A DNA stretch of 64,000 nt from an uncultured Dysgonomonadaceae bacterium (GTDB lineage: Bacteria; Bacteroidota; Bacteroidia; Bacteroidales; Dysgonomonadaceae): NCBI GenBank assembly GCA_964346495.1, contig CAYFUW010000001.1, positions 23,327 to 87,326 on the forward strand. Direction: 5' to 3'. The notes below the pieces were generated by a model, which was not told the origin of the DNA, searched no databases, and saw nothing but the letters and a program-made list of their open reading frames with translations. The position numbers and the translations under genes are program-made. How positions within the stretch are numbered: position 1 is the first letter of the stretch; the number at the start of each line of letters is the position of its first letter. This document shows, one piece after another, positions 3,677 through 47,931 of this stretch.

Positions 3677-3862
3677 GTCGGAGGGATTTGCAATCCCGAC
3701 AATTCACAACTAAAATGCTCATAACTCAAAACTATAAATACTGCATTTCGGATATATCAATTTATAATTACAGTTTTGAAACTCCCCCACACACACAAAC
3801 ACGAAACTCGTAACGTATAAAAACCACCCAACTACACACCCCACATTATCAACCCCTTACAT
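3677..3862. repeat. Mosaic repeat array (hairpin module A plus CA-rich heptad tracts)
   Basis: Module A lies at 3677-3700. It is followed by period-7 tracts (CAACTAA..ATAACTC..AAAACTA; CACGAAA CTCGTAA CGTATAA ...). Confidence 0.7.
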
Positions 3863-8150: not shown

Positions 8151-8444
8151 AAGTAGCAACTAATTTCAAATTAGCAGCTACTTTATTCTGATAAAGTCGG
8201 GATTGCAAATCCCTCAGACAAGTCTTTGTGTTTTGATTCTTTCGTCTGTTCTTTTTTTTGACGAAGGCACAGCCATCGTCTCCTCGAAGCGCAGCGGAGA
8301 TCCCGATGAGCAAAGCGATTTCGGGATACATTCCCGCTTTCACGGGAATGACGTCTGGCGAATATAAATCTCACTTTGTTCGAAATAACAAGGAACACCT
8401 AAACCCGAAACGGGCAACTCGAAACACGTAACTCATAACCCGTT
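8151..8444. repeat. Mosaic repeat array
   Basis: In order: module I 8151-8183, module A 8196-8219, inverted AAGACAC heptads 8221-8250, module D 8262-8283, module E 8329-8353, heptads 8396-8444. Confidence 0.75.
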
Positions 8445-8516: not shown

Positions 8517-8738
8517 TCAATACTCATCTTCGTTGAAGAAAAAATCCTCTTTTGTAGGATAATCTGGCCAGATATCCTCTATTGTTTCAAAGATTTCGGA
8601 GTCATCTTCAATTTCTTGTAAATTCTCGATTACCTCTAGCGGCGCTCCCGAGCGTTGGGCATAATCGATTAATTCATCTTTTGTTGCCGGCCACGGAGCA
8701 TCCTCTAGTTTCGAAGCTAATTCAAGTGTCCAATACAT
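8517..8738 (-). CDS. DUF2795-like small acidic protein
   Basis: 73 aa. The motif PATKDELIDYAQRSGAPLEVIENL resembles DUF2795. The gene is flanked by a -7 box and a terminator. Confidence 0.65.
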   Translation of the reverse strand: MYWTLELASKLEDAPWPATKDELIDYAQRSGAPLEVIENLQEIEDDSEIFETIEDIWPDYPTKEDFFFNEDEY

Positions 8739-9966: not shown

Positions 9967-10380
9967 TTTGCTGTTGGTTATTAGCTTTTAGCCTTTGGCT
10001 TATGACACCAATAATAAAAGTTTTTGTATGAAAAATGAAATTTGATAGTCGGGATTACAAATCCCTCCGAGCAGGGGCGCAAAGTCTCTTCTCGTTTTAT
10101 CACATATTCTCCAAATCGCCCTCTCTCCCATTCGCACAGTCTCCCTCTCTTCAAGTCTCGTAACACGCAATCCGAAACCCGCACCAACTACATACTACAA
10201 ACTACACACTACCTACTTCATGTTACTATTAGACGCGGCATGCCACGTCTCTACTTTTTGAACACGATACCTTTGATTTCGTGATAATTTAACGTAAGCA
10301 CAGCCATCGTCTCCCGCAACTCGTAACACGCAACACGCAACTACTACATACTACCCACTCCAAACTACACACTAACCTCA
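9967..10380. repeat. Mosaic repeat array
   Basis: In order: TTAGCTN heptads 9967-10001, module A 10048-10071, heptads 10158-10227, module B 10231-10254, the 45 bp module 10260-10304, module D 10294-10314, heptads 10321-10376. Confidence 0.75.
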
Positions 10381-26409: not shown

Positions 26410-26411
26410 AC

Positions 26412-26552
26412 GTCGGGATTGCAAATCCCTCCAACAAGACTATAAAAGATATGTTATAATAGGACTTTATAAAAATATAAACCGCATAAAAACATTAGTT
26501 TATATGCGGTTTTTTATATTTCCATCTAGTCGGAGGGATTTGTAATCCCGAC
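26412..26552. repeat. Inverted pair of module A bracketing a terminator
   Basis: 26412-26435 and 26529-26552 are reverse complements of each other (22/24). Confidence 0.75.
26480..26516. terminator. Bidirectional terminator between glmM and the DUF368 gene
   Basis: The stem pairs AACCGCATA with TATGCGGTT and is flanked by an A-run and a T6 run. Confidence 0.7.
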
Positions 26553-26565
26553 AACTCACTGCTAA

Positions 26566-27474
26566 CTAAAACAAATCCTCCCTAGGATACTTCTCTTCTA
26601 CTTTGCTGAATAAGTATGAACAAATTGTTCCAATTATCAGCAATATCAAGCAAAAAATAAATGCTCCACCAAATGATAGTCCACTTGCAATTAGTCCTTC
26701 TTGTGAAAAAGCAGGAAATACAATTGCCGGGAAAATAGCTGTCGATGAACCCAGTACCATTCCTAAAATAAAATGATACATCCCGGCGTAATATTTTTTA
26801 AACAAGTAGGCTGCAAGTTTGGCAAAAAGAATTACACAGATAATCGCACCAAGAATAAGCGGAATAATTACCGCTAAATCGCCGTTTTTAATTCCCGTAG
26901 CCATTTTATCATACAAGCCAAAATAAATAAGAAAATTCGACGGACTCATTCCCGGTACTATCAAACCAAGTCCTATTAGCGCTCCCGAACCAAACCAAGC
27001 CGGTATAGTTGGGGCAACTTCGGTAAGTTGTTGCTCGCCTATCATCATCAGTCCGAAAATAGCTAAAGCTGAAACAAACATAATTACTATGTCTTTGGCT
27101 TTTCGGCCTTGCTTGCCGGCTGTTTTGTAGAGCGAAGGGAAAGTTCCTAATACGAACCCTACAAAAAGGCAAACAAATTGTGCGGCATATTTTCCAAAAG
27201 CTTTTTCAACCACTATTGAAAACAAGAACACACCTATCATTAGTCCAATTCCAACAGGAATAAAGAAAATTACGTTTTTGATAAAATCCTTTTTCAGGTT
27301 GGCAAGGAAAGCCAAAATTCGGTCATATATTCCAAGAATAACAGCCAATACACCGCCCGAAAGCCCGGGAAGAATAAATCCAATTCCGATAATAATCCCT
27401 TTTACCAAGCGAATAATCCAATCCGAAACCGGATTAAGTGTTTTAACAGTTTTTTCTTCTTTTAAATTCTGCAT
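26566..27474 (-). CDS. DUF368 family membrane protein (undecaprenyl-phosphate translocase-like)
   Basis: A polytopic protein of 302 aa with duplicated GLSGG / PGMSPS motifs. Confidence 0.78.
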   Translation of the reverse strand: MQNLKEEKTVKTLNPVSDWIIRLVKGIIIGIGFILPGLSGGVLAVILGIYDRILAFLANLKKDFIKNVIFFIPVGIGLMIGVFLFSIVVEKAFGKYAAQFVCLFVGFVLGTFPSLYKTAGKQGRKAKDIVIMFVSALAIFGLMMIGEQQLTEVAPTIPAWFGSGALIGLGLIVPGMSPSNFLIYFGLYDKMATGIKNGDLAVIIPLILGAIICVILFAKLAAYLFKKYYAGMYHFILGMVLGSSTAIFPAIVFPAFSQEGLIASGLSFGGAFIFCLILLIIGTICSYLFSKVEEKYPREDLF

Positions 27475-27565: not shown

Positions 27566-28951
27566 TCAACAAACAACACACAGTTCATCATTCAATGCTA
27601 TAACTGCATCTTCGTATCTGTCGCGAGAAATAACAAATTGCATATTAACCTGCATAAGCGATTGAGCAAAACTTTCAACATTTATTCCTTTCTCATATAG
27701 AGCTTTCGATGCCCTATATAAAAAGCCGGGCATTGCTATATTTGTTCCCATTGCAGAAACAATTGCTGCCGGCATAACAGTAACATGAGAATAGGCTTCT
27801 TTCAAAACTTTAATGAGTTCCAAACTTTTTTCATCTTCCCAAACTACGATGGTAATAGAGTTTGCATTGGTAGATTTTAGGATATAACTTACACCTTGTT
27901 GTTGAAAATAGGTCATAATGCGTAAATCGTAGCCAACTTCGCCAACCATCATCGGGTCGTGAATTTCGATAGCGATAACTTTTCTTGTACCTGAAACGAT
28001 TTCCACTCTCGGTTCGGGCGAAACGTAATCGCGAGAAATAAGCGTTCCCGGATGTTCAGGCTGGAAAGTGTTCTTTATGCGAATATTTATACCTGCCAAT
28101 TCCAGAGGTTTTGACGCTTTCGGATGAATCGCTTCCATACCTATATCGGCTAACTGGTCGGCGATAATATAGTTTGTTTGTCCAACTGGAATGCTCTTTT
28201 CGACACCCACAATTTTCGGGTCGGCACTCGATAGATGATACTCTTTGTGGATAACTGCTTCATCAGCTTTAACTTCCACAGCTATTTTACTGAACGTAAC
28301 TTCGGAGTATCCTCTGTCGAACGCACGCATAATTCCCTCTGTACCTTTGGTATATCCGGTTGCGATACACAAAACATTGTCAAAATCGATTCCGTTAAAT
28401 TCTCTGTGGATGCGCTCGTCGATAGTTAATGGTTCGTTATCGTTAAATCCGCATAAATCTATAAATCGGGCATTTATTCCGTTATTATTCAATATGTTTA
28501 CCGAATTCCAACCAGAATGTGCTTCACCGATTGAAGCCAAAATCTCTCGAGCCGCCAAATGAATATCTTCCATATTTACATATCCCGATGCGAGAACTTT
28601 CCTCAAACTGTAAAGCAAGGTTTTGGATTGGTCAACACGAAAACGAATAAAATCACGTGCCTCTTTCAAATCCAAACCAATATCGGCAAATCCGTCGTTT
28701 ATAAGCAACAGTCGCTGGCAAAACGAATCTAATGCGCTACTGTAATCTTCGCCGTTCAGGAACTTGTTGTATATACCCGGTTCACCCGTTTTTTTGTGTT
28801 CCAACAACCAATTTGTAACATTGTTATATGCCGAAACCACAAAAATACGATTATACAACTCATCGCCTTTGCGATTTCCTTTTATAATGTTTTGCAGCAC
28901 ATCTTGAAACTGCGACATTGATGTTCCGCCTATTTTTTCAACTGTTAGCAT
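27566..28951 (-). CDS. Aspartate kinase
   Basis: It has an amino-acid kinase N-terminus (VEKIGGTSM) and C-terminal ACT-like repeats; 461 aa. Confidence 0.78.
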   Translation of the reverse strand: MLTVEKIGGTSMSQFQDVLQNIIKGNRKGDELYNRIFVVSAYNNVTNWLLEHKKTGEPGIYNKFLNGEDYSSALDSFCQRLLLINDGFADIGLDLKEARDFIRFRVDQSKTLLYSLRKVLASGYVNMEDIHLAAREILASIGEAHSGWNSVNILNNNGINARFIDLCGFNDNEPLTIDERIHREFNGIDFDNVLCIATGYTKGTEGIMRAFDRGYSEVTFSKIAVEVKADEAVIHKEYHLSSADPKIVGVEKSIPVGQTNYIIADQLADIGMEAIHPKASKPLELAGINIRIKNTFQPEHPGTLISRDYVSPEPRVEIVSGTRKVIAIEIHDPMMVGEVGYDLRIMTYFQQQGVSYILKSTNANSITIVVWEDEKSLELIKVLKEAYSHVTVMPAAIVSAMGTNIAMPGFLYRASKALYEKGINVESFAQSLMQVNMQFVISRDRYEDAVIALNDELCVVC

Positions 28952-29007: not shown

Positions 29008-29141
29008 GTTTCGGGTAATGTATATTTAGTCAGAAGTTTTGAGTGTGTAGTTTTTGTATCGTCGGGATTGCAATTCCCTCCAACGAAATTGTTTCTTGGT
29101 TTGACTTGTAGAGACGCGGCATGCCACGTCTCTACTTTTTT
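29008..29141. repeat. Mosaic repeat array
   Basis: In order: GT-rich heptads 29008-29060, module A 29061-29084, module B 29108-29135 plus a T6 run. Confidence 0.7.
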
Positions 29142-29733: not shown

Positions 29734-29781
29734 ATCGTTTAAATTTCGTCCGAAAGATACGAAAAAAAGAGTGTATTTTGC

Positions 29782-29789
29782 TATATTTG
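29782..29789 (+). promoter_or_regulatory. -7 box upstream of comB
   Basis: TATATTTG lies 20 nt upstream of the ATG at 29810. Confidence 0.45.
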
Positions 29790-29809
29790 CAACCAAACTC
29801 AGTAAAAAT

Positions 29810-30520
29810 ATGAAAGTTGATATCTGTTTTTCTCCTGCACTCTACCCTTTTTATCGGAAAGATAATGAAACGGTAATTATTGTTGATATTTTCCGTGCGT
29901 CAACGACCATTTGCGCCATGTTGACCAATGGAGCATCGGCGGTTATTCCTGTGGCTGATATAGAAGATGCAAAGCTATATAAATCGCAAGGATATTTGGT
30001 TGGTGCTGAACGAAACGCGAAAAGATGCGAATTTGCCGATTTTGGAAACTCTCCTTTCGATTATACAAGAGAAATAGTGACAGATAAAGAGATTGTTTTT
30101 ACCACAACAAATGGCACTCAAGCTATCGATGCTGCCAAAAATTGCAATAACATGTTTATTGGTGCCTTTTCCAATATAAGTGCATTGGCGGAAAAGTGCT
30201 TGCAATTGGGCGAAGATATTTTAGTATTGTGTGCAGGATGGAACAACACGGTAAATATCGAGGATATGCTGTTTGGCAGTGCATTAATAGAAGAGTTGGG
30301 AAAAAATATCGATATTGAAATTAACTCGGATGCTGTGAAAATTGCCAATCATTTATGGAGCGATGCAAAAGAAAATCCTATCGATTTTCTCAGAACTTCA
30401 GAACATTACAAGCGATTAGTAATGAGAGGTGCGGAAAAAGATATTGAGTTCTGTTTTTTGAGAAATACAACTTCCATTGTGCCATACTATAATAAGGAGA
30501 CAAAGAAAATAATTATTTAA
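29810..30520 (+). CDS. comB: 2-phosphosulfolactate phosphatase family protein
   Basis: The motif VDIFRASTTI matches the ComB family. The start at MKVDI lies 20 nt after a TATATTTG box. Confidence 0.72.
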   Translation: MKVDICFSPALYPFYRKDNETVIIVDIFRASTTICAMLTNGASAVIPVADIEDAKLYKSQGYLVGAERNAKRCEFADFGNSPFDYTREIVTDKEIVFTTTNGTQAIDAAKNCNNMFIGAFSNISALAEKCLQLGEDILVLCAGWNNTVNIEDMLFGSALIEELGKNIDIEINSDAVKIANHLWSDAKENPIDFLRTSEHYKRLVMRGAEKDIEFCFLRNTTSIVPYYNKETKKIII

Positions 30521-30533
30521 TTTGCTAATTTTT

Positions 30534-30941
30534 TAGACAAAAGACGCAAGAATCAAGACACAAGACACTTTGTTTCTCGCAAATAAAGCAAAGATTAGTC
30601 GCAAAGTTTTTTTACAACGCTCCCGCGCGAATCCTTCGCGTGGAACATTTAATAAACCGGGATTACAAATCCCTACAACAAGAGGGCATTGCGGTTGCAA
30701 TCCGCATTGCCTTTTTTTTGTTTTAGGCATCTCGCAGGAAACGATTGCTGTGCCTTCGCCAAAATTATCACGAAGCCAAAGGCATCGTGTCCCGATAATA
30801 GAAGAGACGTCATATTATGGCGTCTCAAAATCTAAACCACATAGACACATAGGGTAAAGATTTGCTCTGTGTTGTCGGGATTGCAAATCCCTTCGAAGTG
30901 AAAGAGTTATTTTTGGGATTTCCGCTTTCGCGGAAATGACG
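30534..30941. repeat. Mosaic repeat array (densest in the window)
   Basis: In order: modules G, F, A, a hairpin with T8, the 45 bp module, degenerate B, A and E (coordinates in findings). Confidence 0.8.
30684..30719 (+). terminator. Hairpin plus T8 run inside the repeat array downstream of comB
   Basis: The stem pairs GGGCATTGCGG with CCGCATTGCC and is followed by TTTTTTTT. Confidence 0.55.
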
Positions 30942-30952
30942 TTCGTTTAACC

Positions 30953-30991
30953 ATAAAAAAAAGGCAATGCTGTTTTAAACAACATTGCCTT
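30953..30991 (-). terminator. Intrinsic terminator of T9SS cargo paralog 1
   Basis: On the minus strand the stem AAGGCAATG / CATTGCCTT is followed by a T9 run. Confidence 0.7.
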
Positions 30992-31034
30992 CAAATTAGA
31001 TAACAACCAATAGCCAACTTCTAAAGGCTAAATA

Positions 31035-32675
31035 TTATTTTGCAATAATAACTTTCTCTACAGTCTGTTTATCATCTGTGGTAGTTATTACCATATGATA
31101 AATACCGTTTGTTAAAGAAGATACATCTATTTGATTATTAATCAATCTTGCATTAACCACTTGTCCTAAAGAGTTATATAGTGCTACATGTTTAATATCT
31201 CCTTTTACGAATAATATATCTGTTGCAGGATTTGGATATACTTTTACACCGCTAACTTCCTCATCATCAATACCTGTAATTGTTGTACAATTGAAGTCTG
31301 ATACACAATGTGCCGCTACTCTTCTTACACAATATTCGTATGTACCTCCAGTAACATTCATATCTGTATAATGATTCAGATGTATGTTACTTGCAATTTC
31401 AACACCATTTCTAAAAACATCGTATGTAAAACCTCCAGCCAAACCGGCATATAATGCAACATCATCAATATTGATTCTAAATTCATCGGTAGAATTAAAA
31501 TGACGGAAGGCTACATATTTTGTTCCCGGAGGCAGGTAAATATACCTTTCATACCATGCCCCTTGTTCATTTGTTCCACGTTCTCCTACGTGATTATCAC
31601 CCTTGACAGGTACCATCTCTTCAAATATAGTTGTAAAGTGAGAAGCATCTGTTGCGCTTGATGAAACCATAACTGCATAATAGTCTGCTGCCCAATTAGC
31701 ATCTTGCGCTGAAACCCAATAATGAACAACTTCAATAGGATAATCTAAATCCAACGATGGAGTAATTAGATAGTTATCAGGAGTTAATGGAGCTCCATTC
31801 CAAGAAGCAGAAGTTGCTAAGCCCGTTCCACTATGACCTGTATAATCAGGAGAGTTAATAGCATACCAGTTGAATCCGTCACCGTCTGCATCAATTGTTG
31901 TCCATCCTTCAGGTAATGATCCTAAATGTTCTACACCTTCGAAATCTTCTTCTAATAAAACATATTTCATATTTTTCATTGGGTCATCGTACCATGTTAC
32001 TTTTATATTCTCTCCTTCTGCAACCGCTTCTATATTCTTAGGTGGGAAACAATCAGGAGTCGCATCTACGCATACTTGTTCTGAAACACAATCATCATAA
32101 AGAGCTTCGATGCAGTAATGTTGAGTTCCTTCCTGTATACCTAAATCTTGATAAACAAGTACATCCGGGTCCTCAATTAAGGTCATAAATTCTGAATTTT
32201 TATATAATTTATAGCCTTGCAACGTACTTGTCATATTTTCAGTATCAGGTTTCTCCCAAGTAAGTGTAATAGTCCAAATTTGTACATCACATGCAAAATT
32301 AGTCGGAGAATTACAATCTCCAACTGCAAGAACATTCTTATTAACACAAACAGGTACCGAGATACAATCAGGATTGGTGTAAACCACAACAACACAGTAT
32401 TCGTGCTCGCCAACAGTCGCTTTCCAATCGGTATATTGAGTTGCTGTTAGTCCCGATGCCAATTCTATGTTATCTCTGCTAACTGTGTAGGTAAAGTTTC
32501 TTTGCTTAGAAACATCAATCTGTTCGCCTTGCGGCGACTCACATATCAGATTTTTGCTGTTAACAGGCGGATCCCATGTTATAGTTACAGGAGCACCTAT
32601 TTCTCTTGTAGTAGCTGCTTTTAGCATAAATACTGATAAAGCTAACGTAAAAAATAGTAGAGTAGATTTTTTCAT
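31035..32675 (-). CDS. T9SS cargo, choice-of-anchor-J / cleaved-adhesin-like domain protein (paralog 1)
   Basis: It has a signal peptide, Cys-paired Fn3-like modules, the motif EEDFEG...LPEGWTTIDADGDGFNWY and the C-terminal sorting domain VKVYPNPATDILFV... Confidence 0.8.
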   Translation of the reverse strand: MKKSTLLFFTLALSVFMLKAATTREIGAPVTITWDPPVNSKNLICESPQGEQIDVSKQRNFTYTVSRDNIELASGLTATQYTDWKATVGEHEYCVVVVYTNPDCISVPVCVNKNVLAVGDCNSPTNFACDVQIWTITLTWEKPDTENMTSTLQGYKLYKNSEFMTLIEDPDVLVYQDLGIQEGTQHYCIEALYDDCVSEQVCVDATPDCFPPKNIEAVAEGENIKVTWYDDPMKNMKYVLLEEDFEGVEHLGSLPEGWTTIDADGDGFNWYAINSPDYTGHSGTGLATSASWNGAPLTPDNYLITPSLDLDYPIEVVHYWVSAQDANWAADYYAVMVSSSATDASHFTTIFEEMVPVKGDNHVGERGTNEQGAWYERYIYLPPGTKYVAFRHFNSTDEFRINIDDVALYAGLAGGFTYDVFRNGVEIASNIHLNHYTDMNVTGGTYEYCVRRVAAHCVSDFNCTTITGIDDEEVSGVKVYPNPATDILFVKGDIKHVALYNSLGQVVNARLINNQIDVSSLTNGIYHMVITTTDDKQTVEKVIIAK

Positions 32676-32750: not shown

Positions 32751-32812
32751 CTAAAAATTTAAATACAGTTGTTAGAAAGGTGCACTTATTTAAGCGGTCA
32801 TAGCTAACCACA

Positions 32813-32848
32813 TAAAAAAGGCAATGCAGCTAAAAACCACATTGCCCT
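32813..32848 (-). terminator. Intrinsic terminator of T9SS cargo paralog 2
   Basis: This is the homologous hairpin GGCAATG / CATTGCC followed by a T-run on the minus strand. Confidence 0.65.
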
Positions 32849-32915
32849 CAAATTAGCTAACAGCCAATAGCCAAACTTCGACAAACTCAGTAGCCGAATG
32901 GCAAAAGGCTAAATA

Positions 32916-34571
32916 TTATTTTGCAATAATAACTTTCTCTACAGTCTGTTTATCATCTGTGGTAGTTATTACCATATGATAAATACCGTTTGTTAAAGAA
33001 GATACATCTATTTGATTATCAAACAATCTTGCATTAACAACTTGTCCTAAAGAGTTATACAAGGTTACATGTTTAATATCTCCTTTTACGAATAATATAT
33101 CTGTAGCCGGATTTGGATATACTTTTACACCGTTAATTTCCGCATCCCCAATATCCGTAACAATAGTTGTACAGATAAAGTCGGATGTACAATGTGCCGC
33201 TACTCTTCTGACACAATATTCATATTCACCTTCGGGAACATTCAAATCCGTATAATGATTTACTTCCAGGTTGTTTGCTATTTCAACACCATTTCTAAAT
33301 AAATCATAAGTAAAACCTCCCGGCATAGATGCATAAACAGATACATCATCAAGATTAATTCTAAATTCGTCGGAAGTGTTAAAGTGACGGAAAGCTATAT
33401 ATTTTGTATCCATTGGTAGATCAATAATTCTTTCGTACCATACTCCTTGTGCGTTTGTGCCACGTTCTCCTCCGTTTTTATCTCCTTTTGCCGTTAATGT
33501 CTCTTCAAACACAATAGTAAAATCAGAAGCATTTGTTCCGGTAGATGATGCCATAACCGCGTAATGCTCTGCAGGCCAATCAGCATCTTGCGCTGAAACC
33601 CAAAATTGAACACTTTTTGGGAAAGCGTCAAACTCGTCAAATACTTGGGGAGTGATTAAATAGTTGTCCGGATTTAGAGGCATTCCGCCAACCCATGATG
33701 CAGACGTTACTAAACCTATTCCGCTATGACCTGTATAGTCAGAAGAATTAACAGCCCACCAGTTGTATCCGTCACCATCGGCATCAATTGTTATCCATCC
33801 ATCAGGCATAGTACCACCACCGTGTTCCAGACCTTCAAAATCTTCTTCAAATACTACTTGTTTCGTAAATTTGGTTGGATCATCGTACCACGTTACTTCA
33901 ATATTATCTCCTACAGCAACTGCTTCAATGTTATCAGGCGGGAGACAATCAGGTGCCGCATCTACACATACCTGTTCTGAAACACAATCGTTGTAAAGTG
34001 CTTCTATACAATAATGTATAGTTCCTTCCTGACCTCCTTCATCTACATATACAAGCACATTCGGATCTTCTATAAAAGCAAGAAATTCTGAATTTTTATA
34101 CAACTTATATCCGGTAAGGGTGCTGGTTGTATTGTCTGTATTCGGTTTTTCCCAAGTTAGTGTTCTGGTCCAAATTTCTACTTCGCAAGCAAAATTAGTT
34201 GGTGCATTACAATCTCCAACAGGCATAGCATTAGTAGTTACACAAGCAGGTACCGAAATACAATCAGGATCTGTATATACTACAACAACACAGTATTCAT
34301 GCTCACCCACAGTTGCTTCCCAATCTGTATATTGAGTTGCTGTAAGGCCTGTTATCAATTCTATGTTATCTCGCATTACAGTATAGGTATAGTTCCATTG
34401 TTTAGATGCATTGACTGCATCACTTTGCGCTGAATCAGATATTACAGATTTACTGCTAACAGGCGGATCCCATGTAATAGTTACGGGCGCACCTATTTCT
34501 CTGGTTCCTGTTGCTTTTAGCATAAATACTGATAAAAGCAAGGTAAAAAATAGTAGAGTAGATTTTTTCAT
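32916..34571 (-). CDS. T9SS cargo, choice-of-anchor-J / cleaved-adhesin-like domain protein (paralog 2)
   Basis: Roughly three-quarters of residues look identical to paralog 1 by eye. The last 70 aa differ at only 3 positions. Confidence 0.8.
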   Translation of the reverse strand: MKKSTLLFFTLLLSVFMLKATGTREIGAPVTITWDPPVSSKSVISDSAQSDAVNASKQWNYTYTVMRDNIELITGLTATQYTDWEATVGEHEYCVVVVYTDPDCISVPACVTTNAMPVGDCNAPTNFACEVEIWTRTLTWEKPNTDNTTSTLTGYKLYKNSEFLAFIEDPNVLVYVDEGGQEGTIHYCIEALYNDCVSEQVCVDAAPDCLPPDNIEAVAVGDNIEVTWYDDPTKFTKQVVFEEDFEGLEHGGGTMPDGWITIDADGDGYNWWAVNSSDYTGHSGIGLVTSASWVGGMPLNPDNYLITPQVFDEFDAFPKSVQFWVSAQDADWPAEHYAVMASSTGTNASDFTIVFEETLTAKGDKNGGERGTNAQGVWYERIIDLPMDTKYIAFRHFNTSDEFRINLDDVSVYASMPGGFTYDLFRNGVEIANNLEVNHYTDLNVPEGEYEYCVRRVAAHCTSDFICTTIVTDIGDAEINGVKVYPNPATDILFVKGDIKHVTLYNSLGQVVNARLFDNQIDVSSLTNGIYHMVITTTDDKQTVEKVIIAK

Positions 34572-35166: not shown

Positions 35167-35369
35167 TTAGCTGTTAGCTGTTGGCTATTAGCTTTTGGCA
35201 AGTTATGTCTGTTTTAGTAGATAAACCAAATACACAAATACTAATTACCAAAACAACTCCATATACTACGAAACATCTTTTATCAGACATTCTCGAATTC
35301 GGGCAAAAAAAGCATTCTCGCTTTCTCTAAACTTACCACAGTCGCTCCCGCGCGAATCCTTTCGCGTGG
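35167..35369. repeat. Mosaic repeat array
   Basis: TTAGCTG heptads lie at 35167-35201, a G-free CA-rich tract at 35221-35269 and module F at 35343-35369. Confidence 0.65.
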
Positions 35370-35485
35370 TATCATTCAGTAAACGAGTTGACGGTAAACA
35401 AGTAAACTTTTTAGAAGTTCATGCAACCAACACCAAACAAAACGTAATTCAAAAGATCTTGCCTCTTGGTTCTATCGTCTTTCGT

Positions 35486-39863: not shown

Positions 39864-39940
39864 TTTACGATTTGGGATTTCGGATTTACGATTTATAAAA
39901 AAGGGAGACGATGGCTTTGCCTTCGTTACAAAATCCCGAC
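39864..39940. repeat. Mosaic repeat array
   Basis: Heptads TTTACGA TTTGGGA TTTCGGA TTTACGA TTTATAA come first, then inverted module D at 39903-39925 and a half copy of module A at 39928-39940. Confidence 0.65.
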
Positions 39941-41026: not shown

Positions 41027-41053
41027 ATTTACAATTTCCTTCAACGATATATT

Positions 41054-41088
41054 GTAGATACGCGGCATGCCACGTCTCTACGATTTTT
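41054..41088 (+). terminator. Palindromic module B plus T-run downstream of aroB
   Basis: The sequence is GTAGATACGCGGCATGCCACGTCTCTAC followed by GATTTTT. Confidence 0.5.
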
Positions 41089-41138
41089 CAAAACTTGTAA
41101 CCCGAAACACGCAACACGTAACTCGTACCACAAAAAAA

Positions 41139-43720: not shown

Positions 43721-43859
43721 CATCATTTCCTTGAAAAAGGAAATAGAGCGTGGAAAGAAGAATGAATAAATGAAATTAATCCTAAATGGACAGATTTGAG
43801 TGATGGGTGGTATGAATAAGAATAAAGGGATTCCCGCGGAAGCGGGAATGACGGCTTCG

Positions 43860-45926: not shown

Positions 45927-45933
45927 TTTTTTG

Positions 45934-46075
45934 TAGAACAAAGAGCAAAGAATCAAGACACAAGACTTTTTTATTTGCAATTATTTTGTTCGCTTCTGCG
46001 CGAATCCTTTCGCGTGATATTTACCCAACTATAAAGCAAATAGCCAATGGCTAATAGCTAACAGCCAATAACAAC
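45934..46075. repeat. Mosaic repeat array
   Basis: AAGANNC heptads lie at 45934-45968, module F at 45991-46017 and TAGCCAA-type heptads at 46034-46075. Confidence 0.7.
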
Positions 46076-47476: not shown

Positions 47477-47690
47477 TTTCGAGTTCCGAGTAGCTGCGAA
47501 TTCCAATTAGCTGCTACTTAAAACCCTAAAAGTTTTCTTGTTGTATGGATTTGTTATACCGACAAATACCACGCGGAAGCAGTCTAAAAAAACTTAGCGA
47601 GCTTAGCGATTAATCTTTGCGTTCTTTGCGAGAAACATAGATTAGCATTCCAATAAGTCTTATGTCTTGATTCTTGTGTATTGTATCTGA
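47477..47690. repeat. Mosaic repeat array
   Basis: It contains TTNCGAG heptads, module I at 47488-47519, degenerate module A at 47541-47563 and inverted extended module G at 47587-47686. Confidence 0.7.
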
Positions 47691-47931
47691 AAAAATATTT
47701 TCAATATTATAATAATAATCTATAAGATAATGCGTTTCTAATTATATAAAACGAAGCGCGTATGATAAATTTTACTCAAAAAAGTCATTTAAATTCAACC
47801 TTTACAGATAAAAAAAGTCCAATGCCATCTACGCTGAGCATCAATATTATAAGGCAGTTTGCACTTGCTCTATATGTAGAGAGAAAACTATCTATTGCAG
47901 AAAATAGTTTTATTCTAAATTGATAATTTAT

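What the first reader, a model, noticed from the sequence alone, without database searches (positions are those of the whole stretch)
30534..30941. Intergenic spacers are assembled from a shared kit of short modules (BIME-like mosaic arrays); this is the densest example
Almost every spacer longer than 100 bp in this window is a concatenation of the same 20-100 bp modules in varying order and orientation, not unique sequence. The array 30534-30941 alone contains the following. (1) The AAGACAC heptad block with its 3' extension (30534-30613). An inverted copy with an insert of about 20 nt lies at 47587-47686, and the heptad part recurs at 45934-45968 and inverted at 8221-8250. (2) Hairpin F, CGCTCCCGCGCGAATCCTTCGCGTGG (30618-30643), also at 35343-35369 and 45991-46017. 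(3) Hairpin A (30656-30679 and 30874-30896), with 7 more copies elsewhere. (4) A 45 bp module (30747-30791), with an inverted copy about 80% identical at 10260-10304. (5) A degenerate B palindrome (30804-30826). (6) Hairpin E, GGGATTTCCGC-TTTC-GCGGAAATGACG (30915-30941), also at 8329-8353 and 43827-43853. Other arrays lie at 3677-3862, 8151-8444, 9967-10380, 26412-26552, 29008-29141, 35167-35369, 39864-39940, 41054-41128, 45934-46075 and 47477-47690. The modules are too short and too shuffled to be IS copies. They have no coding potential and only generate spurious ORFs, and their orientation does not track the flanking genes. The architecture recalls E. coli BIMEs or Neisseria Correia-type mosaics. 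I do not recognise these module sequences as a described family and cannot verify novelty without a search.
Basis: partly seen in the sequence, partly recalled or inferred. Interest (0 to 1): 0.7.

Follow-up and report, generated by a model that had tools for sequence, protein, structure and literature searches.

The report
REP-type hairpin and heptad mosaic spacers
The spacers between genes in this Bacteroidales (Dysgonomonadaceae) genome are largely built from a few families of small repeated DNA hairpins and 7-base tandem repeats; this is a new example of the known REP/BIME/NIME type of bacterial "junk mosaic", and one hairpin is shared almost letter for letter with very distant phyla.

Summary
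Spacer-to-spacer similarity is about 20 times what shuffled spacers give, and outside one paralogous gene pair every repeat in the window lies between genes.

The array 30521-31034 fills a convergent spacer. It reads: heptad block, CGCAAAG-type block, hairpin F, hairpin A, terminator; then module C, a palindrome, hairpin A, hairpin E, and the terminator of the opposite gene.

- Hairpin A has the layout of GTAG-tagged REPs: GT[C/T]G-GA-GGGATT-TGY-AATCCC-GAC.
- Hairpin E fits the CGTC-1 family, which includes Neisseria dRS3.
- Nine period-7 tandem arrays accompany the hairpins, as STRR repeats do in cyanobacteria.

Modules sit in convergent and co-directional spacers and never in divergent ones. 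Some form longer co-linear composites, and module C sits inside one of them. Relatives at about 90% protein identity lack all modules. A closer relative shares some and carries different arrays elsewhere.

The 20-mer of hairpin A recurs in Poribacteria, Chloroflexi and other Bacteroidales, and there too it lies near heptad arrays more often than chance.

Verdict: a new member of a known kind (REP mosaics). Spread by a Y1/RAYT transposase is inferred; none was found in the DNA I could read.

The parts
30527..30570 (+). Imperfect heptad array (AGACNCA x about 5) that begins with TTTTTTAGA just after the stop codon of the ComB-like gene
   Evidence: TRF period 7, 4.9 copies. nhmmer E=4.5e-11 with 4 further copies. 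Predicted unstructured, z=+1.1.
30571..30613 (+). 'Extension' block made of CGCAAAG-type sub-repeats; second part of the ~155-bp composite
   Evidence: 89% identical to 47637-47602. Co-linear alignment.
30617..30645 (+). Hairpin F (CCGCGCGAA-TCC-TTCGCGTGG)
   Evidence: 9-bp stem, -9.1 kcal/mol, z=-3.0. Copies at 35342-35371 and 45990-46019.
30657..30682 (+). Hairpin A, a GTAG-like REP. Its reverse complement reads GTTGTA-GGGATT-TGT-AATCCC-GG, so the tag is partly decayed
   Evidence: nhmmer E=2.5e-6. 6-bp stem with a 3-nt loop, z=-4.1. It lies directly upstream of terminator T1.
30685..30721 (+). Intrinsic terminator-like hairpin followed by T8, downstream of the + strand gene 29771-30520
   Evidence: Terminator scan. 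Fold -9.4 kcal/mol. Its left arm is shared with the terminator at 30955-30992 (16/16 bases).
30734..30792 (+). Module C, a 59-bp imperfect long hairpin
   Evidence: nhmmer E=5e-18. Full inverted copy at 10260-10318; half copies at 8256-8283 and 39903-39939. At 10260-10318 it sits exactly at the junction of a B-D composite. Three independent assemblies break at 30793.
30804..30826 (.). Palindrome GAGACGTCATA-T-TATGGCGTCTC, possibly a variant of B
   Evidence: Inverted repeat I3, 91% complementary. -8 kcal/mol, z=-5.7. Not detected by the B profile.
30873..30898 (+). Hairpin A, second copy in the array, same orientation as the first
   Evidence: nhmmer E=3e-8.
30914..30942 (-). Hairpin E, a CGTC-1-type REP. 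The minus strand reads CGTC-ATTTCCGC-GAAA-GCGGAAAT-CCCA
   Evidence: 8-bp perfect stem, -8 kcal/mol. Tag, stem, loop and tail match the CGTC-1 definition. Copies at 8328-8355 and 43826-43854.
30955..30992 (-). Intrinsic terminator of the minus-strand T9SS adhesin gene 31035-32675. It belongs to the duplicated 3' flank of the paralog pair, not to the dispersed kit
   Evidence: Terminator scan. z=-6.3. 30948-31017 is 86% identical to 32805-32874.
26411..26554 (.). Inverted pair of hairpin A copies (tags facing inward) on either side of a bidirectional terminator, in a 156-bp convergent spacer
   Evidence: The terminator at 26479-26513 is conserved in relative L100.
29060..29140 (+). Hairpin A followed by palindrome B (GTAGAGACGCGGCATGCCACGTCTCTAC), kept at the same position in a related species
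   Evidence: Alignment A5. A is decaying in both species. B differs by two compensatory pair changes and one unpaired change.
41052..41127 (+). Composite of B, a T-run and D heptads (GTAACNC x5) in a convergent spacer
10046..10377 (+). Large array: A; heptads (ACTACAT); B; inserted C(-); D heptads (CGCAACA); heptads (ACTACAC)
47536..47696 (-). Decayed inverted copy of the ~155-bp composite heptad-ext-F-A
   Evidence: Alignment A1. nhmmer hits.

Best explanation
The array is a non-coding mosaic built from two kinds of material.

(i) Several families of REP-type palindromic hairpins:
- A has the layout of GTAG-1/2 REPs.
- B is a 28-bp palindrome that starts GTAG and ends CTAC.
- E is a CGTC-1 (dRS3-type) REP.
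- F and C are lineage-specific hairpins.

(ii) Imperfect heptanucleotide tandem arrays.

Shown here:
- The elements are dispersed repeats confined to spacers.
- They lie downstream of genes (convergent and co-directional spacers), often between a stop codon and an intrinsic terminator.
- They nest into one another and turn over quickly between related species.
- The palindromic symmetry of B is maintained.

Inferred:
- The hairpins spread as single-stranded DNA hairpins. A Y1 HUH transposase of the RAYT/TnpA-REP type probably handles them, as proposed for GTAG REPs. Such enzymes are known in Bacteroidetes.
- Heptad arrays grow by replication slippage and travel with, or attract, the hairpins.
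- Copies that land in 3' untranslated regions are tolerated, or retained as mRNA 3'-end stabilisers or terminator helpers.
- Insertions into promoter-bearing divergent spacers are removed by selection.
For: - Repeats far exceed chance and are confined to spacers.
- A, B, E and F fold as hairpins.
- The layout of A (tag, GA dinucleotide, stem-loop, GAC) matches the published description of GTAG-1/2. The Poribacteria version carries a true GTAG tag.
- E matches CGTC-1 in tag, 8-bp stem starting with AT, 4-nt loop and CCA tail.
- By spacer type, modules occur in 0 of 3 divergent, 5 of 6 convergent and 10 of 12 co-directional spacers. This is the distribution published for REPs.
- Module C is inserted exactly at a B/D junction.
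- Relatives at about 90% aspartokinase identity lack all modules in 47 kb.
- A relative at 84% nucleotide identity keeps A and B at one orthologous site, with A decaying, and has a different mosaic of about 400 bp inserted elsewhere.
- B shows two compensatory pair changes between the two species.
- RAYT subclasses 2.4 and 2.6 occur in Bacteroidetes, flanked by repeated secondary structures.
- In unidirectional spacers of other phyla, 29 of 38 A copies put the tag-first form on the sense strand. In the window it is 4 of 4.
Against: - No Y1/RAYT gene lies in the window or in about 950 kb of fetched DNA. The rest of this genome could not be read, so the mobilising enzyme is unverified.
- The tag in the window copies is GTCG or GTTG, not GTAG. 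GTTG is not among the published degenerate tags.
- No presence/absence polymorphism between strains was available. The three other assemblies are identical to the window.
- CGTC REPs have no known dedicated transposase.
- Heptad arrays are not part of the classical REP/RAYT picture.
- Hairpin A is invariant at an orthologous 3'UTR site across Prevotellaceae. There it behaves like a selected functional motif rather than a selfish repeat.
Confidence: 0.62

Rival explanations
1. The hairpins are mainly functional RNA elements in 3' untranslated regions. They would block 3'-exonucleases, assist or modulate termination, or give rise to small RNAs, and they would be kept by selection. Their repetition would be secondary.
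For: - Four A copies sit 3-136 nt after stop codons and upstream of terminator-like hairpins (26411, 26526, 30657).
- In seven Prevotellaceae sequences a 43-nt block containing A is invariant between the nifJ/PFOR stop codon and its terminator. The terminator stem covaries and the flanks diverge.
- Orientation is biased relative to transcription.
- Palindrome B shows compensatory changes.
Against: - The orthologous A copy in the Maf-aspartokinase spacer is decaying in both species, as is the copy at 47537.
- Arrays are gained and lost between close relatives.
- The same hairpin occurs in both orientations relative to transcription, and between two terminators (30873).
- The heptad blocks are unstructured.
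- This reading is compatible with the main explanation rather than exclusive of it.
Confidence: 0.25
2. The modules are decayed fragments of one or a few longer non-autonomous transposons (MITEs), whose intact copies and parent IS lie elsewhere in the genome.
For: - A ~155-bp co-linear unit (heptad-ext-F-A) occurs twice, with a partial third copy.
- A ~80-bp B-T-run-D unit occurs 2-3 times.
- Assemblies break inside the array.
Against: - The composites show no terminal inverted repeats or target-site duplications on inspection of alignments A1 and A3.
- Each module also occurs alone and in other orders and orientations.
- Hairpin A occurs alone in several phyla.
- No transposase lies in the window.
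Confidence: 0.1
3. The arrays act at the DNA level as binding platforms for nucleoid or topology proteins, as E. coli BIMEs bind IHF, gyrase and Pol I. The heptads would be iterated protein-binding sites.
For: - Analogy with BIMEs (established knowledge).
- Families D, E and F all lie on one strand.
- The association of heptad arrays with hairpin A is conserved across phyla: 13 of 115 copies against 30 of 1840 random positions.
Against: - Nothing here tests it directly.
- Heptad unit sequences differ from array to array, which argues against a single sequence-specific binder.
Confidence: 0.08

Closest known systems
GTAG-tagged REPs, especially families GTAG-1/2 (e.g. Pseudomonas REPs), and REPIN/RAYT systems (Di Nocera 2013, PMC3733652; Bertels & Rainey 2011, PMC3116915)
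   Same: - A short stem-loop with a 5' GTNG tag, an unpaired dinucleotide and a conserved 3-bp motif on the far side.
- Many dispersed intergenic copies.
- A preference for convergent and unidirectional spacers.
- Occasional inverted pairs.
   Different: - The tag is GTCG or GTTG in this genome.
- The stem is only 6 bp.
- No RAYT has been seen.
- GTAG REPs were not reported from Bacteroidetes in the 2013 survey.
- This hairpin sequence appears neither in that paper's supplementary files nor in the full-text library.
CGTC-1 REPs, i.e. Neisseria dRS3, and the Neisseria intergenic mosaic elements (NIMEs) built around them
   Same: - Hairpin E fits ATTCCC-N8-GGGAAT / CGTC-ATTYCCGC-N4-GCGGRAAT-CCA.
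- It sits inside mosaic spacers interleaved with other repeat families.
   Different: - There is one E per array, so E does not flank each repeat unit.
- There are no head-to-head dimers.
- The host phylum differs.
- No link to prophage integration was seen.
E. coli BIMEs
   Same: They are mosaics of palindromic units and conserved linker motifs located after genes.
   Different: - There is no regular alternation of two palindromic-unit types in opposite orientation. The two A copies in the array point the same way, 216 bp apart.
- Several unrelated hairpin families and heptad arrays take part.
Cyanobacterial STRR heptanucleotide repeats and the small dispersed repeats (SDR) of Nostoc (Elhai et al. 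2008). STRR is described in PMC2670836; details of the SDR paper are from my own recollection because it could not be read
   Same: - Intergenic tandem arrays of 7-bp units with no known function.
- They are associated with ~20-30-nt mobile-looking hairpins.
   Different: - Different phylum and different unit sequences.
- The association here is statistical, not obligatory.
Correia elements / MITEs
   Same: They are small, non-coding, repeated and intergenic.
   Different: There are no terminal inverted repeats, no target-site duplication and no fixed full-length unit.

Membership tests
GTAG-tagged REP super-family (Di Nocera 2013) | Short stem-loop (stem 6-13 bp, short loop) | tested here: met
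   Hairpin A has a 6-bp stem GGGATT/AATCCC and a 3-nt loop. B is a 28-bp palindrome.
GTAG-tagged REP super-family (Di Nocera 2013) | Unpaired terminal GTAG tag, or a listed degenerate form (GYAG, GYRG, GTRG, GTMG) | tested here: inconclusive
   On the reverse strand the window copies start GTCG (fits GTMG) or GTTG (not listed). The Poribacteria and Chloroflexi copies of the same hairpin start GTAG or GTGG. In B, GTAG pairs with CTAC and so is not unpaired.
GTAG-tagged REP super-family (Di Nocera 2013) | GTAG-1/2 layout: an unpaired dinucleotide between tag and stem, and a conserved 3-bp motif on the other side | tested here: met
   GT[C/T]G-GA-GGGATT-TGY-AATCCC-GAC in 7 of 9 copies. Definition.
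GTAG-tagged REP super-family (Di Nocera 2013) | Many dispersed copies, mostly between convergent or unidirectional ORFs | tested here: met
   9 copies in 64 kb, all intergenic, none in divergent spacers. The genome-wide number could not be obtained.
REP/REPIN-RAYT system | A cognate Y1 HUH transposase (RAYT, PF01797) flanked by the same REPs | not testable with these tools
   No Y1 transposase in the window or in ~950 kb of fetched loci, by tblastn with two seed sequences written from memory (E. coli RAYT-like, IS200 TnpA) and by a motif scan. The rest of the source genome was not retrievable. RAYTs do exist in Bacteroidetes.
CGTC-1 REPs (includes Neisseria dRS3) | CGTC tag, 8-bp stem starting with AT, 4-nt loop, CCA-like tail | tested here: met
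   The reverse strand of 30914-30942 reads CGTC-ATTTCCGC-GAAA-GCGGAAAT-CCCA. Copies at 8328 and 43826 keep tag, stem and loop, with tails GTA and CCC.
CGTC-1 REPs (includes Neisseria dRS3) | Predominantly organised as head-to-head dimers or large clusters | tested here: not met
   All three copies are single.
E. coli BIME | Palindromic units of two types alternating in orientation, separated by specific linker motifs | tested here: not met
   The two A copies in the array have the same orientation and are separated by unrelated modules C and B'. Only 26411/26526 forms an inverted pair.
E. coli BIME | Binding of IHF, DNA gyrase and Pol I | not testable with these tools
   Needs biochemistry.
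Neisseria NIME | 50-150-bp repeat units, each flanked by dRS3 inverted repeats | tested here: not met
   There is one E (dRS3-like) hairpin per array at most.
Correia element / MITE | Terminal inverted repeats, target-site duplication and a defined full-length unit | tested here: not met
   The ends of the 155-bp and 80-bp composites show no inverted termini or duplications (alignments A1 and A3).
STRR-type heptanucleotide tandem repeats | Intergenic tandem arrays of 7-bp units | tested here: met
   Nine period-7 arrays, all in spacers. Unit sequences differ from the cyanobacterial ones, so this is a resemblance in kind, not shared sequence.
Any Rfam RNA family | Score at or above the family's gathering threshold | tested here: not met
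   0 hits in the window. Only sub-threshold noise in the array.

The most novel reading that the evidence does not exclude
Hairpin A together with heptad arrays may be a phylum-spanning intergenic system, not just another lineage-specific REP.

- The same 20-24-nt hairpin is kept to the letter in Poribacteria, Chloroflexi and several Bacteroidales families.
- It is preserved at orthologous sites, for example the nifJ 3'UTR of Prevotellaceae.
- It lies near heptanucleotide arrays about seven times more often than chance.
- Some of those arrays share units across phyla (CAGTTNN...GTTAAGAG).

This would imply one of two things. Either the hairpin is recognised by a conserved host factor, or there is a so far undescribed way of propagating such elements that also generates the heptads. 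If so, the cyanobacterial STRR/SDR puzzle would be one instance of something general.
Probability: 0.15. Interest if true: 0.7.

Novelty: new member of a known kind. Interest (0 to 1): 0.42.

Why it matters
- REP-type repeats are well studied in Proteobacteria and barely described in Bacteroidales, a major group of gut and anaerobic-digester bacteria.
- These arrays break short-read assemblies: three independent assemblies end at the same base inside the array.
- They create spurious ORFs and probably shape the 3' ends of mRNAs.
- The near-identity of one hairpin across phyla, and its link with 7-bp tandem arrays, gives a concrete handle on an old question: what heptanucleotide repeats and very small dispersed repeats are, and how they spread.

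Tried and rejected
- **Rfam:** no family matches at the gathering threshold over the whole window or at the E-value threshold over the array. There are no tRNAs.
- **Literature:** a full-text search for the hairpin A sequence on both strands, as DNA and RNA, found nothing. It is also absent from the supplements of the REP survey.
- **Y1/RAYT transposase:** tblastn with an E. coli RAYT-like and an IS200 TnpA sequence (both written from memory), and an HUH...Y motif scan, over the window and all fetched loci (~950 kb), found nothing. An inverted A pair 613 bp apart in L109 encloses an ORF with no HUH-transposase features on inspection; the contig looks phage-like.
- **Strain polymorphism:** the only other assemblies of this organism are identical to the window, so they give no insertion polymorphisms.
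- **Source genome:** exact-protein look-ups returned only short Logan contigs.
- **Other modules elsewhere:** modules B-F were not found in the 92 loci from other genomes or in relatives L097-L099.
- **Phage origin:** rejected. There is one hit in 2.9 million viral contigs.
- **Coding control:** the control was flawed because the sampled segments overlapped. I rely instead.
- **Elhai et al. 2008:** the paper could not be retrieved.
- **tRNA-Cys idea:** I considered that the A loop (TTGCAAA) mimics the tRNA-Cys anticodon arm. I did not pursue it, because the Poribacteria copies carry ACA.

Full report
**Where the window comes from.** Its proteins place it in Bacteroidales, family Dysgonomonadaceae. 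The aspartokinase at 27566-28951 has its best named relatives (84-87% identity) in Proteiniphilum, Fermentimonas, Limibacterium and 'Dysgonamonadaceae bacterium'. Type IX secretion (T9SS) sorting domains are present. G+C is about 37%. The window is part of a 111-kb NCBI contig.

**Checking the observation.**
- Copy numbers: hairpin A 9, AAGACAC heptad block 5, hairpin F 3, palindrome B 3, module C 2 full and 2 half copies, CA-rich heptad module D 5-6, hairpin E 3.
- Spacers hit each other 129 times, covering 1686 of 7825 bp. Dinucleotide-preserving shuffles give 6.2 hits and 99 bp.
- In a self-comparison of the whole window, the only repeat inside genes is a pair of paralogous T9SS adhesin genes.
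- 'Almost every spacer' is too strong. Fifteen of 21 internal spacers of 100 bp or more carry at least 15% module cover (three of them mainly through a local tandem duplication or the paralog flanks), and the three divergent ones carry none.

**Anatomy of 30521-31034.** This is a convergent spacer between a ComB-like gene (+) and an adhesin gene (-). In order it contains:
1. the heptad block (30527-30570), starting just after the stop codon;
2. a block of CGCAAAG-type sub-repeats;
3. hairpin F;
4. hairpin A;
5. a terminator-like hairpin with a T8 run (30685-30721);
6. module C;
7. a 23-bp palindrome;
8. a second hairpin A;
9. hairpin E;
10. the terminator of the minus-strand gene (30955-30992), which belongs to the duplicated flank of the paralogs.

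These assignments rest. A, B, E, F and the palindrome fold better than shuffled sequence. The heptad block does not.

**The modules are not all independent.** The stretch 30529-30683 is co-linear with 47694-47536 in inverted orientation, so heptad-ext-F-A is a composite of about 155 bp. The second copy is decayed, and a third (45927-46019) lacks the middle. B, a T-run and D heptads form a second composite at 41052-41127. At 10231-10342 the same composite carries module C exactly at the B/D junction, which reads as a nested insertion. None of the composites has inverted termini.

**Heptads are a main ingredient.** Tandem Repeats Finder reports nine period-7 arrays with different units: AGACACA, CGCAACA, ACTACAT, ACTACAC, GTAACAC, ATTTACG, TTAGCTG, TCTATCG and a 14-mer made of two heptads. 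All nine lie in spacers.

**What the hairpins are.** On its reverse strand, A reads GT[C/T]G-GA-GGGATT-TGY-AATCCC-GAC.
- That is a tag, an unpaired dinucleotide, a stem-loop and a 3-bp motif. This is exactly how Di Nocera et al. describe GTAG-1/2 REPs.
- E on its reverse strand reads CGTC-ATTTCCGC-GAAA-GCGGAAAT-CCCA. This matches their CGTC-1 family, which includes Neisseria dRS3, in tag, 8-bp stem starting AT, 4-nt loop and CCA tail.
- B is a palindrome beginning GTAG and ending CTAC.
- The restriction to convergent and unidirectional spacers is the published REP pattern.
- The strict definitions of BIME, NIME and Correia elements are not met (see the membership table).

**Evolution.**
- Relatives with about 90% aspartokinase identity (L097-L099, G+C 41-42%) contain none of the modules in 47 kb.
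- In one of them, the S4-domain (Hsp15-like) gene and ComB are 18 bp apart. In the window, 4.2 kb lies between them: two adhesin genes and this array.
- A closer relative (L100, 84% nucleotide identity in genes) keeps A and B at the same place in the Maf-aspartokinase spacer. A is decaying in both species. B differs at five positions, four of which form two compensatory pairs.
- The same relative has its own copies of the heptad block and an extra mosaic of about 400 bp in a spacer that is plain in the window.
- So arrays turn over quickly, and at least B keeps its symmetry.

- Most hits are in Candidatus Poribacteria, with many per genome and a true GTAG tag. Others are in Anaerolineae/Chloroflexia, Tannerellaceae, other Bacteroidales, Prevotellaceae and Siphonobacter. 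Single hits in Brucella, Treponema and an actinomycete are within what chance would give.
- In these loci period 7 is the commonest tandem-repeat period. Thirteen of 115 A copies have a heptad array within 60 bp, against 30 of 1840 random positions.
- By a crude ORF call, 29 of 38 copies in unidirectional spacers place the tag-first strand on the sense strand. In the window it is 4 of 4.
- In seven Prevotellaceae sequences, a 43-nt block containing A is invariant between the stop codon of nifJ/PFOR and its terminator.
- Only one viral contig carries the 20-mer.

**Mechanism.**
- Shown: these are dispersed, nested, fast-evolving non-coding hairpin repeats and heptad arrays placed downstream of genes.
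- Inferred: the hairpins spread through a single-stranded hairpin intermediate handled by a RAYT-type Y1 transposase. Such enzymes occur in Bacteroidetes, flanked by repeated secondary structures. Copies in 3' untranslated regions may stabilise transcripts.
- Not verified: I found no Y1 gene in the window or in about 950 kb of fetched DNA, and I could not read the rest of the genome.

**Verdict.** This is a genuine, dense REP-type mosaic and a new member of a known kind. The cross-phylum identity of hairpin A and its association with heptad arrays are the parts worth following up.

Noticed in passing
L106:8790-8960(-), L108:3515-3685, L047:7665-7835, L060:3180-3345(-), L083:622-792, L107:88-258, L110:7135-7300(-): In seven Prevotellaceae sequences a 43-nt block, (G/A)TTGGAGGGATTTGYAATCCCGACC(A/T)TCATA(A/T)TCA, is invariant. 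It lies between the stop codon of pyruvate:ferredoxin oxidoreductase (nifJ) and its terminator. The terminator stem covaries and the flanks diverge. It looks like a conserved 3'UTR element.
   Followed up: partly
window 31035-32675 and 32916-34571 (with flanks 30948-31017 / 32805-32874): Tandem paralogous T9SS 'Cleaved_Adhesin' genes with duplicated 3' flanks and terminators. Together with the array they form a 4.2-kb block between the S4-domain gene and ComB. In relative L098 those two genes are only 18 bp apart.
   Followed up: partly
window 30793 (ends of L001, L002 and L003): Three independent Logan assemblies of this organism all end at the same base, at the 3' edge of module C. Most contigs of the closest relative species are 5-7 kb. 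The arrays evidently break short-read assemblies.
   Followed up: partly
window, all copies of modules D, E, F and the T-run side of B: There is a strand bias. D (5 of 5), E (3 of 3), F (3 of 3) and B-with-T-run (3 of 3) all point the same way on the + strand, whatever the direction of the flanking genes. A is 6 of 9. This may reflect replication direction, but the copies inside composites are not independent.
   Followed up: no
L099:845-1302(-) compared with L010, L039, L052, L059 (Poribacteria): A Dysgonomonadaceae relative carries the heptads CAGTTTT-CAGTTAA-CAGTTTT-CAGTTAAGAG. Poribacteria carry CAGTTAT/GTTATAA heptads ending in the same GTTAAGAG, directly before hairpin A. Heptad units may therefore be shared across phyla.
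   Followed up: no
L027, L032, L037, L044, L050, L067 (Poribacteria): At one orthologous gene, hairpin A lies in frame near the N-terminus. In L037 it encodes ...LLVGGICNPD... within MKTIKFALISVILLVGGICNPDTQGAS..., a signal-peptide-like region. This is an intragenic REP kept across species.
   Followed up: partly
L020, L048, L093: These loci carry hairpins with the same TTGCAAA loop but different stems: GTCGCAGATTGCAAATCTGC and TTTCGGATTGCAAATCCGAAAG. This suggests sub-families with covarying stems. From memory, the loop resembles the anticodon loop of tRNA-Cys.
   Followed up: no
window 43800-43854: Hairpin E (43826-43854) overlaps the first 18 codons of the ORF called from GTG 43800. The true start of that gene is probably further downstream.
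   Followed up: no
window 26566-27474 compared with L100:2720-3300: The VCA0040-like membrane protein gene between aspartokinase and phosphoglucomutase is absent at this position in the closest relative. That relative instead has a 580-bp spacer with an A-like hairpin and a heptad block.
   Followed up: no
window 8517-8738(-): A 73-aa acidic ORF (MYWTLELASKLEDAPWPATKDELIDYAQRSGAPLEV...) looks like a real small gene inside what the 100-aa ORF list treats as a 723-bp spacer. I did not check it against any family.
   Followed up: no
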